Assembly: GCA_947624795.1 (NCBI GenBank) | Contig: CANQLY010000001.1 | Span: 1-50,805, forward strand | Source: an uncultured Marinospirillum sp. | GTDB taxonomy: Bacteria > Pseudomonadota > Gammaproteobacteria > Pseudomonadales > Halomonadaceae | Length of the DNA: 50,805 nucleotides | Direction: 5' to 3' | Part shown: positions 2 through 3,761 of the stretch, in pieces | Position numbering within the stretch: position 1 is the stretch's first letter | Layout of the letters: every line of letters starts with the position of its first letter | Position numbers and translations under genes: made by a program | The notes under the pieces: generated by a model | The model's input: only the letters and a program-made list of their open reading frames with translations | Database searches by the model: none | Told to the model about the DNA's origin: nothing

Positions 2-1903
2 AATGGTAGTGAGTTACCAGCCAACACAAAAGACGGTGTAACTGGTGTAACCGGTGTAACCACCAGCAACGGTGCGGTTTCCAAAGTTACACCAAGCAAG
101 AATCAAGGTGTAACCGGTGTAACCTCTTTTATAAAGAAGGTTGATTTACAGGCAGAACCCACAGCCCCCGAAGTAGTGGAAGCTAAAATTCAGCGCCCCT
201 GTTTTATGACGCATGATGATTGGTTTTTACTAAACGGCAAGCGGTACAAAGCCGGTCTGTATTGGCACGGGGAAAAGGAAGGTGCAGATGATGCGCCGCC
301 TGAACCAATTAACGAGCGCATTTGTAGCCCAATTTATATAAAAGCCATTAGCAGCGATTCGCAAGACCAAGAGTTTGGTAAGTTGCTTTGCTTTATCAAC
401 CTAAACGGTAAGTGGAAAGATTGGGTTATGCCAACCCGACTATTAAAAAGTGCCGGTGATGAATTGCGTGGTGAATTGCTAGACCAAGGATGGATGCCAG
501 AATCTAACAGGGCGCAAACTAGGGCTAGGTTTACTGAATGGCTATTACAAGAAAACCCAAGTGAACGCATAACCGCTGCAACTTCAACTGGCTGGCACGA
601 TGACGGCAAAGCCTTTGTTTTTCCTACGCATACCTTGGGTAATGAAAAAATACGCTTTCAATCAGAATATACCCGTAATGATTTTTTTGTAGAACGCTCA
701 ACACTGGCTGAATGGAAGGAAACAGTAGCCAGTCAATGCGTAGGTAATCCAATGCTAACCCTTGCGCTATCGGTAGCTTTCGCTGGTACGTTGCTATTGC
801 CTGCAAAGCTTCAGTCTAGCGGTGGTGCTGGCATAAACCTTATGGGGCGAAGTTCACAAGGTAAGACTACGGCGCTAGAAGTTGCTGCTAGCGTATGGGG
901 TGCAAGTGAATACGTTCGTACATGGAATGCCACAGGCAATGGTTCTGAGGCAATAGCCGCTAGCCTAAATGATGCGCTGCTAATTTTGGATGAACTAGGG
1001 CAAAGTGACCCCAAGAATGTTGGCGATGTAGTTTATATGCTGGCAAATGGTAGCGGTAAAACTAGAGCTAAAAGCAGTGGTGGCGCTAGAAGAACGCAAG
1101 CATGGCGATTGATGGTGTTAAGCAGTGGTGAAAAGACGCTACCTTCACACATGGCAGAAGTCGGCATTGTAGCCAAGGCAGGGCAAGAAGCTAGATTGCT
1201 TGATATACCTGCAACAGAACAAACCTATGGTGTGTTTGATGAACTGCACGGCTGTAAAGATGGGCGTGAGTTTGCAGACAAATTAAAGTCGGCAACTTCC
1301 AAAGCTTACGGCACAGCAGGTAAGGCTTTTATAAAAGGCGTGATGCAAAAGGATGACTTGCCAGCGTTATACAATGAAATAAAAGAACAAGCTGGCTTCA
1401 CTGCTACCGATGGTGTGGAAGCTAGAGCCGCTGCAACCTTTGCGCTAATAGCCCTAGCTGGTGAACTAGCAACAAACCTTGGTATAACTGGCTGGGATGC
1501 AGGCGAAGCAATGGATAGCGCCGTCATTGGTTTTGAGTTGTGGCGTGGTGCAAGAGGTCAAGGCAGTACAGAAGACCGGCATATCTTGGAGTCTATCCAG
1601 TCTTACATTGAAACCTACAACGACAGCCAATTTACCAACCTAGACAATGCCAGCGATTTAGTTAAAACAGCCAAGCGTTCCGGCTACTGGAAAAACACAC
1701 CTGATGGTCAGCGTATTTATTACTTTACTACAGCAGGTTTAAAAGATGCGGTAAAAGGCTATGAGGTTAGAACAGCAAACCAAGCGTTAAGGAATGCTGG
1801 CTGGCTTGCAGAAACCAGCAGTGACAATAAGCCGACAGTGACAAAGCGAATAAACGGCATTACCACACGCCTTACCGCTATTCTGCCAAAGGAGCTAACC
1901 TAG
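2..1903 (+). CDS. DUF927-family replication helicase/NTPase (5' truncated by the window edge)
   Basis: The frame of ORF 176..1903 is open back to position 2 (NGSELPANTKDGVTGVTGVT...). Walker A GRSSQGKTT, Walker B LILDELGQ, and TGWH and ANGSGKTRA motifs typical of DUF927 proteins. Confidence 0.85.
   Translation, partial: NGSELPANTKDGVTGVTGVTTSNGAVSKVTPSKNQGVTGVTSFIKKVDLQAEPTAPEVVEAKIQRPCFMTHDDWFLLNGKRYKAGLYWHGEKEGADDAPPEPINERICSPIYIKAISSDSQDQEFGKLLCFINLNGKWKDWVMPTRLLKSAGDELRGELLDQGWMPESNRAQTRARFTEWLLQENPSERITAATSTGWHDDGKAFVFPTHTLGNEKIRFQSEYTRNDFFVERSTLAEWKETVASQCVGNPMLTLALSVAFAGTLLLPAKLQSSGGAGINLMGRSSQGKTTALEVAASVWGASEYVRTWNATGNGSEAIAASLNDALLILDELGQSDPKNVGDVVYMLANGSGKTRAKSSGGARRTQAWRLMVLSSGEKTLPSHMAEVGIVAKAGQEARLLDIPATEQTYGVFDELHGCKDGREFADKLKSATSKAYGTAGKAFIKGVMQKDDLPALYNEIKEQAGFTATDGVEARAAATFALIALAGELATNLGITGWDAGEAMDSAVIGFELWRGARGQGSTEDRHILESIQSYIETYNDSQFTNLDNASDLVKTAKRSGYWKNTPDGQRIYYFTTAGLKDAVKGYEVRTANQALRNAGWLAETSSDNKPTVTKRINGITTRLTAILPKELT
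35..124. repeat. Iteron module A: 9-bp GGTGTAAC(C/T) x3, one inverted copy, then x2
   Basis: Direct copies at 35, 44, 53, 107 and 116; inverted AGTTACACC at 85-93. Lies inside the open helicase frame. Confidence 0.9.
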
Positions 1904-2533: not shown

Positions 2534-2971
2534 ATGAAGAAAACACAATTTAAGAAAGGTCAGAGTGGAAACCCAGCCGGTCGACCTAAAGGCAGTGGCT
2601 TAGCAGGTCGATTAAGGCAGGCCATAAATGATGATGCTGATGATATTTTAAAGGCCGTTGTCGTTGCCGCTAAGGGTGGCGATATGCAAGCCGCCAAGAT
2701 ACTACTCGACAGAATATGCCCAAGCCTGAAGCCTGAATCCCAGCAAGTAGACCTACCCGAACTATCAGCAGGCACACTTACCGAACGAGCTACAGCGGCG
2801 CTTGATGCCGTGGGACGTGGTGATCTAGCACCCGATACAGCAGCGCAACTTATCAATAGTGTTGGAGCGCTTGCCCGTGTTGTCGAGCTGGACGAAATGA
2901 TGGAGCGTGTAGCACGGCTAGAAGAACACACCGGCGTAACTGATACAGGGGAGCATCAATGGCAAGTATAA
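2534..2971 (+). CDS. DUF5681-domain protein (small-terminase-like N-terminus)
   Basis: N-terminal FKKGQSGNPAGRPKGS signature and GDMQAAKILLDR helix. Confidence 0.8.
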   Translation: MKKTQFKKGQSGNPAGRPKGSGLAGRLRQAINDDADDILKAVVVAAKGGDMQAAKILLDRICPSLKPESQQVDLPELSAGTLTERATAALDAVGRGDLAPDTAAQLINSVGALARVVELDEMMERVARLEEHTGVTDTGEHQWQV

Positions 2972-3105
2972 GAGCAAGGTTAGCTAGGTTAGAGAAAGGT
3001 AATGCTGTTCAGATTAAACCACCAGCCAAGCGAAAAACACTTGATGACTTCTACCAAGAGCTAGAAGAAAGCAAAGGCGCAATTATGAAGGAGTTTTACC
3101 AGTGA
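2959..3105 (+). CDS. Small hypothetical protein, 48 aa (MASIRARLARLEKGNAVQ...MKEFYQ); not in the ORF track
   Basis: Hand-translated. GGGGAG RBS; overlaps the end of the DUF5681 gene; its TGA overlaps the next GTG start. Confidence 0.7.
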   Translation: MASIRARLARLEKGNAVQIKPPAKRKTLDDFYQELEESKGAIMKEFYQ

Positions 3106-3266
3106 ACCTAAAAGCTAGATTGGCAAAGCTTGAACAGCGTCACCAGAACAAGCCACAAGACACACAGCAGGCGGTTATTGCGGTACTAAGGTCAATGCTT
3201 GCCAACTGTAAAGATGACCACAGGCACGCCGTAATTCAAGCGGTGCTAGGAGGTGTAAGAGCATGA
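3102..3266 (+). CDS. Small hypothetical protein, 54 aa (MNLKARLAKLEQRHQ...VLGGVRA); not in the ORF track
   Basis: Hand-translated. AAGGAG RBS; GTGA overlap upstream and ATGA overlap downstream. Confidence 0.7.
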   Translation: MNLKARLAKLEQRHQNKPQDTQQAVIAVLRSMLANCKDDHRHAVIQAVLGGVRA

Positions 3267-3487
3267 ACATTAGAAATAGATTAGCCAAGCTTGAACGCAA
3301 CACGACCACCAGCAACGACACCATGAAGTTAATCGTATTGTCTGCACCAGAACAACAGATAAACGGCCTTGCTCATGGTGGCGAACGTATTGAACGGCTA
3401 GCAGGTGAACCGCTGGACGCATTACAGCAACGTGCTATTGCAAGGTGGTACACAGGCCAGCCGATTATATGCGTTGCAGTGAGTTAA
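3263..3487 (+). CDS. Small hypothetical protein, 74 aa (MNIRNRLAKLERN...)
   Basis: AGGAGGT RBS, ATGA coupling, and the same N-terminal motif as the two preceding ORFs. Confidence 0.75.
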   Translation: MNIRNRLAKLERNTTTSNDTMKLIVLSAPEQQINGLAHGGERIERLAGEPLDALQQRAIARWYTGQPIICVAVS

Positions 3488-3600: not shown

Positions 3601-3676
3601 CGGGGGTATATATGGGGGTATTTTCTGTTATCTTAACTCTTAAGCCTATATGCCATAAGGCTTAGAGAGTTTTTAA
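3601..3676. other. Putative att arm region of the integrated element
   Basis: GGGGGTATATATGGGGGTAT direct repeat (3602-3621) resembles P4-family integrase arm sites. An inverted repeat TAAGCCT...AGGCTTA follows, then the tRNA 3' end. Confidence 0.6.
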
Positions 3677-3761
3677 TGGTACCGGTGAGCGGACTTGAAC
3701 CGCTACGCCTTGCGGCAACGGATTTTGAATCCGTCGTGTATACCAATTTCACCACACCGGC
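3677..3761 (-). tRNA. leuX: tRNA-Leu(CAA)
   Basis: Reverse complement GCCGGTG TGGTGAAATTGGTATACAC GACGGA TT-CAA-AA TCCGT, long variable arm, GGTTCAAGTCC, CACCGGT-ACCA; 85 nt with encoded CCA. Confidence 0.97.

What the first reader, a model, noticed from the sequence alone, without database searches (positions are those of the whole stretch)
2534..3487. Four consecutive genes share an R-h-x-x-h-E coiled-coil tag: a candidate modular docking system on a TerS-like hub
Seen: DUF5681 ends EMMERVARLEE. The next three translationally coupled ORFs (2959-3105, 3102-3266, 3263-3487; two absent from the ORF track, each with a strong RBS) begin SIRARLARLEK, NLKARLAKLEQ and NIRNRLAKLER, then diverge completely. 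The DNA differs mostly at synonymous sites (AGGTTAGCTAGGTTAGAG / AGATTGGCAAAGCTTGAA / AGATTAGCCAAGCTTGAA), pointing to protein-level selection rather than a DNA repeat. Known: R-h-x-x-h-E is the trimerisation motif of short parallel coiled coils (coronin, matrilin). Inference: a cassette of variable micro-effectors that hetero-oligomerise with the TerS-like protein or a helper-phage protein, for example to redirect packaging or interfere with the helper. I know of no description of such an array.
Basis: partly seen in the sequence, partly recalled or inferred. Interest (0 to 1): 0.82.

Follow-up and report, generated by a model that had tools for sequence, protein, structure and literature searches.

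The report
Satellite terminase with swappable docking proteins
A small integrated phage-parasite element carries a likely DNA-packaging recognition protein followed by a variable row of tiny proteins that all start with the same short helix on which that protein ends, a layout found across many bacteria; the tiny proteins likely dock on that helix and may act as interchangeable adaptors to the packaging motors of different helper phages.

Summary
The four genes end a PICI-like satellite (integrase, DUF927 primase, DUF5681 gene, no capsid or large terminase seen) integrated at tRNA-Leu. ORFs starting with R-h-x-x-h-E follow this type of DUF5681 gene in 42 of 62 loci (3 of 57 upstream) and in 27 of 41 held-out loci, in arrays of up to four. 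About 300 phage records carry a sister clade of the gene; where fetched it precedes TerL, and those TerLs have an extra N-terminal helix at the same junction (14 of 14 extended; exact motif in 3 of 14, against 0 of 51 ordinary TerLs). So the motif likely marks the TerS-TerL docking helix, and the small ORFs are free-standing docking modules. ORF4 is a real protein (family of 1019 clusters, dN/dS 0.21, confident fold), and heads and bodies are exchanged at the motif between relatives. Best reading: adaptors linking the satellite TerS to helper motors (0.4). Binding, translation of ORF2 and ORF3, and adaptor function are untested, and the bodies showed no bulk likeness to TerS tails or TerL extensions. 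Not found in 9 literature searches.

The parts
2..1903 (+). DUF927 primase/helicase of the element, cut at the contig start
   Evidence: Pfam DUF927 E 6.3e-77; PHROG DNA primase E 2.4e-73; the window starts at base 1 of contig C1
1970..2237 (.). Two 121-nt repeats rich in GTTACA/TGTAAC units, with inverted copies at 34-124; likely replication-origin iterons (recalled likeness, untested); the 189-aa ORF 1903-2472 across them has no family
2534..2971 (+). DUF5681 protein, likely small terminase (TerS); extra C-terminal helical hairpin ending in the motif R125-E130 (2906-2923)
   Evidence: Pfam; R125 and E130 invariant in 29 relatives and in 11 phage TerS; phage-TerS profile hits it at E 4.4e-13; AF2 helix 100-133; dN/dS 0.08 against L001
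2959..3105 (+). ORF2, 48 aa: motif helix plus orphan body
   Evidence: no relative of the body among the loci held; body replaced by other DNA in one contig of run X4
3102..3266 (+). ORF3, 54 aa: motif helix plus orphan helical body
   Evidence: its first 11 residues head an ORF4-type body in protein P0123
3263..3487 (+). ORF4, 74 aa: motif helix, linker, compact beta-beta-beta-alpha-beta domain; member of a large unnamed family
   Evidence: 1019 clusters at E<=0.001; R6, E11, E49, R57 invariant in 121 sequences; AF2 pLDDT 85.7; dN/dS 0.21
3602..3620 (.). GGGGGTA direct pair, also present just before the integrase at the other end; likely integrase arm sites (inferred)
3676..3690 (.). 15-bp att core, repeated at the element's other end on contig C161 next to a P4-type integrase gene
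   Evidence: empty-site contigs in runs X1, X2, X13
3677..3761 (-). tRNA-Leu(CAA), the integration target

Best explanation
This is the packaging end of an integrated PICI-like phage satellite: a likely small terminase (TerS) followed by a variable array of small proteins whose first helix likely docks on the TerS tail and whose variable bodies would act as interchangeable adaptors to a helper phage's packaging motor. Shown: the element's layout and ends; the conserved R-h-x-x-h-E helix at the TerS end and at the start of the following ORFs across many bacteria; an N-terminal helix-plus-strands extension on the TerL of phages that use the sister TerS clade; ORF4 under purifying selection; exchange of heads and bodies at the motif. 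Inferred: (1) in those phages the TerS tail and the TerL N-helix form a short parallel coiled coil that joins the two subunits; (2) the satellite TerS, having no TerL of its own, fills that site with the small proteins (about 0.7); (3) each body binds a helper component, most likely TerL, so one DNA-recognising TerS can be plugged into several helpers, with recombination at the motif DNA refreshing the array (about 0.4 overall).
For: Enrichment: 42 of 62 loci downstream vs 3 of 57 upstream, 2 of 62 antisense, 12 of 400 genome windows; arrays of two or more in 14 of 62 vs 1 of 400. Held-out set, same rule: 27 of 41 vs 6 of 40 and 3 of 41; arrays in 9 of 41. Reverse test: the only hit of the ORF4-family profile outside the own genome, among 401 genomes, lies directly after such a TerS. 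Phages: 309 and 306 records match two phage TerS queries; in 14 of 14 non-redundant partner TerLs the first ATPase motif ends at residue 83-92, against a median of 38 (11-69; located in 35 of 51) after ordinary DUF5681 TerS; h-x-x-h-E in 12 of 14 vs 4 of 51, exact motif in 3 of 14 vs 0 of 51. One contig (L150) has TerS, a free motif ORF, then a TerL without the motif (phrog_38, E 7.6e-48). Paired departures: one clade (L147, L149, L159) lost R in TerS and E in the partner; L151 has E...K in both. Module exchange: ORF2 body replaced up to 3 nt before the ORF3 motif, ORF3 head on an ORF4 body (P0123), TerS tail fused to an ORF4 body (P0127). Lambda TerS binds TerL through its C-terminal part (PMC6739421, passage), and the far N-terminus of lambda TerL binds TerS (PMC11417361, passage).
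Against: The bodies show no bulk likeness to 51 ordinary TerS tails (mean z -0.05), and the ORF4-family body does not align with the TerL extension once the helices are removed (P 0.28). The R is missing in most TerL extensions (11 of 14), and most of the 14 belong to one related phage group. Partners also lose the E beside an intact TerS motif (L139, L346, L373, L374, L380), so the paired changes rest on two events. About a third of loci have no motif ORF (20 of 62; 14 of 41), many with an unrelated 160-aa gene instead. ORF2 and ORF3 bodies are orphans with no evidence of translation. No helper phage is known. TerS function rests on gene position and annotation; a phage member was reported among virion proteins by mass spectrometry (PMC8954984, passage), unusual for a TerS (own knowledge).
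Confidence: 0.4

Rival explanations
1. The small proteins are decoys: free TerL-head mimics that occupy the tail of a helper's TerS of the same type (or throttle the satellite's own TerS) and so block helper packaging, as SaPI Ppi does.
For: They copy exactly the TerL position and lack any ATPase; ORF4 folds as a closed domain with its own last strand; phages with a matching TerS tail exist.
Against: One decoy helix would suffice, yet the bodies are conserved (E49, R57 invariant) and arrays hold different bodies; the matching phages found form one clade of Gamma- and Betaproteobacteria phages, while the arrays also occur in Alphaproteobacteria and Chlamydiae.
Confidence: 0.22
2. The motif is only a homo-trimerisation tag, used independently by TerS and by unrelated small effectors (anti-phage or regulatory cargo) that never bind TerS.
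For: R-h-x-x-h-E is a proven homotrimer motif, also in the bacterial FapF (PMC6173795, passages); bodies are mostly unrelated (64 of 86 blastp singletons).
Against: Does not explain the tight linkage and translational coupling to this TerS type, the helix on cognate TerLs, or the R-lost/E-lost pairing; no PADLOC match.
Confidence: 0.15
3. The array is a store of alternative TerS tails: deletion between motif copies fuses a chosen body to TerS, and the fused protein is the working form.
For: G012 holds a TerS tail fused in frame to an ORF4 body at the motif; starts of ORF3 and ORF4 are 79% alike over 33 nt.
Against: One clear case among 128 loci examined, and that TerS match is split in two pieces beside IS66 fragments; each ORF keeps its own ribosome-binding site and start; no deletion joint in 8 runs (contigs drop rare variants).
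Confidence: 0.1
4. The ORFs are mostly functionless remnants of repeated duplication or capture of the TerS-TerL junction.
For: ORF2 and ORF3 bodies are orphans; array length varies among close relatives.
Against: ORF4: dN/dS 0.21, a 1019-cluster family and a confident fold; silent-site divergence in the motif; open frames kept across phyla.
Confidence: 0.08

Closest known systems
PICI (phage-inducible chromosomal islands), as defined in PMC10085698 (passages read)
   Same: Integrase, primase-replicase and small terminase in that order, compact, at a tRNA; no tail or lysis genes seen in the held parts
   Different: No capsid-morphogenesis gene after TerS; regulator not seen (assembly gap); the motif array is not mentioned in the passages read
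SaPI TerS plus Ppi (PMC6739421, passage)
   Same: Satellite TerS that borrows the helper TerL, plus a small packaging protein
   Different: Ppi binds the phage TerS as a single inhibitor; here up to four variable proteins share a helix with the satellite's own TerS tail
Rpp of E. coli PICIs (PMC6739421, passages)
   Same: Packaging redirected by a heterocomplex with a terminase subunit, with a coiled-coil part
   Different: Rpp mimics the DNA-binding domain of lambda TerS; no modular array
PLE Gpi/GpsA/GpsB (PMC11417361, passages)
   Same: Three small, variable satellite proteins acting on the terminase; an adapter role is one of the authors' models
   Different: No shared tag is described there and no TerS is identified; sequence kinship was not tested here
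TerS-TerL pair of Vi II-E1/Skate-like, PE067, DDSR119 and Vibrio 1.036.O phages (phrog_9747 TerS)
   Same: Homologous TerS with invariant tail R and E; partner gene starts with an amphipathic helix ending in h-E
   Different: The partner is a full TerL; the phage TerS form their own branch (support 99, quick tree)
R-h-x-x-h-E trimerisation motif (Kammerer 2005, seen only as a reference; FapF, PMC6173795, passages)
   Same: Same six-residue pattern in a predicted helix
   Different: The case read is a homotrimer; here a hetero-pairing between gene neighbours is proposed

Membership tests
PICI | Integrase at one end, att repeats | tested here: met
   P4-type integrase beside the 15-bp core on contig C161; empty sites in public runs; the two contigs are not joined in the assembly
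PICI | Primase-replicase module | tested here: met
   DUF927 primase/helicase
PICI | Small terminase | tested here: met
   Homologue of phage genes directly upstream of TerL, annotated as TerS in PE067; activity not tested
PICI | AlpA/MerR/Stl regulator | tested here: inconclusive
   The stretch between integrase and primase falls in an assembly gap
PICI | Capsid-morphogenesis gene (common, not universal) | tested here: inconclusive
   None between primase and att; the gap could hold one; none recognised by Pfam in the 20 relative loci sampled
PICI | Induced and packaged by a helper phage | not testable with these tools
   No helper known
cf-PICI | Own TerL, portal, capsid and head-tail genes after TerS | tested here: not met
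   Only 189 nt separate ORF4 from the att core
Small terminase of solved fold | Structural match to a solved TerS | tested here: inconclusive
   Monomer model; no Foldseek hit at E<=0.001, best VIA Z 5.7 to generic helices
R-h-x-x-h-E trimeric coiled coils | Motif in a helix, R and E conserved | tested here: met
R-h-x-x-h-E trimeric coiled coils | Parallel three-stranded state | not testable with these tools
   Needs biophysics

The most novel reading that the evidence does not exclude
A widespread satellite lineage has split the terminase interface into a universal socket (the TerS tail helix) and a shuffled library of plug-in adaptors, each bridging to a different helper phage's motor, so that helper range is set and changed by swapping 50-100-residue cassettes at a coiled-coil-coding crossover site.
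Probability: 0.35. Interest if true: 0.87.

Novelty: new variant of a known kind. Interest (0 to 1): 0.72.

Why it matters
How satellites that carry only a TerS match it to the motors of unrelated helper phages is open for most elements. A shared docking helix with swappable bodies would be a new, modular answer, and it is testable with short peptides and two point changes. Even without the adaptor step, the work assigns DUF5681 to TerS by gene position, names a candidate TerS-TerL contact for about 300 phage records, and defines an unannotated family of over 1000 small-protein clusters that marks a common class of satellites.

Tried and rejected
Complex prediction of TerS residues 66-137 with ORF4, both as alignments: no verdict (score 0.01, mark 0.32, controls not folded); not used for or against. 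Fold searches: no match for the TerS model in PDB or BFVD at E<=0.001 or for the ORF4 model (BFVD best E 0.33, VIA best Z 2.4). Longer fused forms of the ORF4 family: none among 7996 candidates scored, weak evidence; P0127 (fused to a TerS tail) and P0146 (159 aa, two stretches) were the exceptions noticed among the best 150. The idea that bodies mimic TerS tails failed in bulk; only an LxxLSxEEL-like helix recurs (8 of 74 bodies vs 0.08 in shuffles; 1 of 51 TerS tails, 0 of 291 control tails). Homology of the ORF4 body to the TerL extension was not shown. A likeness of ORF3 to L115 ORF2 seen by eye was not significant. No Pfam, PHROG or PADLOC family for ORF2-4. ESM Atlas gave only unnamed clusters for ORF4, with recognition below the mark. 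An RNA run holds the element only as contigs, which shows no transcription. Prophage search with the phage-TerS profile in 400 genomes returned only loci already found with the satellite profile. A viral scan with the DDSR119 TerS found nothing. The tree is the quick version, unrooted, so no direction of descent is claimed. Three look-ups in earlier findings returned nothing.

Full report
Observation. The four genes, their overlaps, ribosome-binding sites and motifs are as described. The pattern is rare by chance: by a fixed rule (an ORF of 30 aa or more whose R-[ILVM]-x-x-[ILVM]-E begins at offset 3-12, within 900 nt), 12 of 400 random stretches of the own genome score once and 1 of 400 twice.

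The element. The window begins at base 1 of contig C1 inside a DUF927 primase/helicase. After a repeat-rich stretch come the DUF5681 gene, the three ORFs, 189 nt, and the 3' end of tRNA-Leu(CAA). Contigs of runs X1, X2 and X13 continue from that tRNA end into other DNA, the empty site. That flank lies on contig C161 of the own genome, followed by a second copy of the 15-bp core and a P4-type integrase. The two contigs are not joined, so the middle of the element is unseen. Related loci show the same plan, integrase then one of several primases or helicases then this gene, with no capsid or TerL recognised by Pfam among 106 ORFs chosen from 169 in 20 loci. This works like a PICI as defined in PMC10085698 (passages read).

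The array is general. Of 87 non-redundant loci whose DUF5681 protein covers the C-terminal domain, 77 have the motif in their own tail. Among the 62 with 900 nt downstream, 42 have a motif-headed ORF (28 one, 10 two, 2 three, 2 four), against 3 of 57 upstream and 2 of 62 on the other strand. These counts include the window itself, two phages (one scoring through its TerL) and two loci from unpublished genomes (L187 of G368, a hit; L188 of G356, a miss), which need their depositors' permission before publication; 25 loci with shorter flanks were left out of the ratio. A set fetched later and scored by the same rule gave 27 of 41, against 6 of 40 and 3 of 41, with pairs in 9; 22 of its genomes belong to one family, so they are not independent. 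In the reverse direction, the ORF4-family profile hit one other genome among 401, directly behind such a gene. About a third of loci lack the array; about ten of these carry an unrelated 145-200-aa gene in its place.

What the gene is. In viral contigs the DUF5681 N-domain usually sits directly before a TerL and ends in a short tail. The longer type seen here adds a helical hairpin whose last helix (residues 100-133 in the model) holds the motif. The window protein hits only 7 of 50,697 phage records, weakly, but two of those phage proteins each match over 300 records; where fetched, the gene precedes TerL, directly or after a short gap or one gene. Their profile hits the window gene at E 4.4e-13, R and E are invariant in them too, and they form one side of a branch against 80 satellite-type proteins (support 99, quick tree). 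No solved structure matches. TerS function is thus inferred from position and annotation; one member was listed among virion proteins of phage STGO-35-1 (PMC8954984, passage).

The junction in phages. All 14 non-redundant partner TerLs (from 67 distinct starts, merged at 80% identity) have an extension of about 50 residues: the first ATPase motif ends at 83-92, against a median of 38 after ordinary DUF5681 genes (located in 35 of 51). The extension opens with a helix ending h-x-x-h-E in 12 of 14 (4 of 51 ordinary) and with the exact motif in 3 of 14 (0 of 51). One of the 14 (Vibrio phage 1.198.A) appears to be a different TerL type carrying a similar helix. Since TerS C-termini and TerL N-termini are the known contact in lambda (PMC6739421 and PMC11417361, passages), the two helices likely are that contact here. 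The small ORFs stand where TerL would and start as it does. One 3.9-kb contig has TerS, a free motif ORF and a TerL without the motif, the arrangement an adaptor predicts, but it is a single case. Paired changes hint at direct pairing: a clade of three lost the R in TerS and the E in the partner, and L151 swapped charges in both; five partners, however, lost the E beside an intact TerS.

The bodies. They are mostly unrelated by blastp (64 of 86 singletons) but fall into recurring types. ORF4's type spans 1019 clusters of mostly 70-100 aa with two further invariant residues and no library name, folds with confidence into a helix, a linker and a compact domain, and shows dN/dS 0.21 over 63 codons in one pairwise comparison. 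ORF2 and ORF3 bodies have no relatives in the loci held. Modules are exchanged at the motif: in one contig of run X4, 104 nt from ORF2's body to 3 nt before ORF3's motif are replaced by 142 others; P0123 joins ORF3's head to ORF4's body, and P0127 joins a TerS tail to it. Against my reading, bodies resemble ordinary TerS tails no more than shuffles do, and the ORF4-type body does not align with the TerL extension without the helix. What the bodies bind is therefore open.

Mechanism. I commit to docking on the TerS tail (about 0.7) and to an adaptor role towards a helper motor (0.4 overall), because this TerS ends in a socket that ordinary TerLs do not appear to fit (0 of 51 carry the motif), the satellites occur well beyond the hosts of the matching phages found, and conserved, varied, swappable bodies suit several helpers. 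Decoy, independent homotrimer tag, tail-fusion store and remnant are the rivals. The motif's trimer role is taken from PMC6173795 (passages); the iteron and arm-site readings are from my own knowledge.

Novelty. Nine literature searches found one paper naming DUF5681 and none describing this array; five papers were read as passages only, no supplements were opened, and subscription papers are not in the library. The nearest systems are Ppi, Rpp and Gpi/GpsA/GpsB. Verdict: a real, widespread, apparently undescribed variant of satellite packaging modules, with a concrete but untested mechanism.

Noticed in passing
L001:2608-3105, L002:6429-6911, L003, L008, L010, L014, L184, L352, L353, L360, L377, L383, L385: A different, roughly 145-200-aa helical gene (starting Y-x-x-L-S/T-x-x-E/Q-R in most) takes the place of the motif array after the same TerS type, even in a close relative (L001, 82% identical TerS); no PHROG match for the two members tested, no PADLOC match for one.
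   Followed up: partly
L145:1576-6192, L022:1592-6226, L018:3561-6035, L019:7279-7953, L394, L395: Some of these elements carry large phage-like genes (LPD38/ddrB-ParB, tape-measure, baseplate, phrog_5880) beside the TerS module, which suggests satellites that may supply their own ejection or tail parts.
   Followed up: no
L388-L392: An alphaproteobacterial subtype has a shared 250-aa unknown gene before TerS and two other small genes between TerS and the motif ORF (600-780 nt downstream).
   Followed up: partly
L020:9293-9945 and L019: Two records listed as plasmids (Waddlia pWc, a Shigella 13-kb circle) have integrase, primase, this TerS and a motif ORF; they may be excised or plasmid-like satellites.
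   Followed up: no
L017:1-2055: In the DDSR119 record the labels of the small and large terminase are swapped (157 aa called large, 525 aa called small).
   Followed up: yes
L105: One element has a motif-headed ORF upstream of TerS as well as downstream.
   Followed up: no
window:7022-7200: Short tandem repeats (frame reading LLVYWFIG and FFKFFKF several times) between an NnrS-like and an MnmC-like gene (names recalled, not tested).
   Followed up: no
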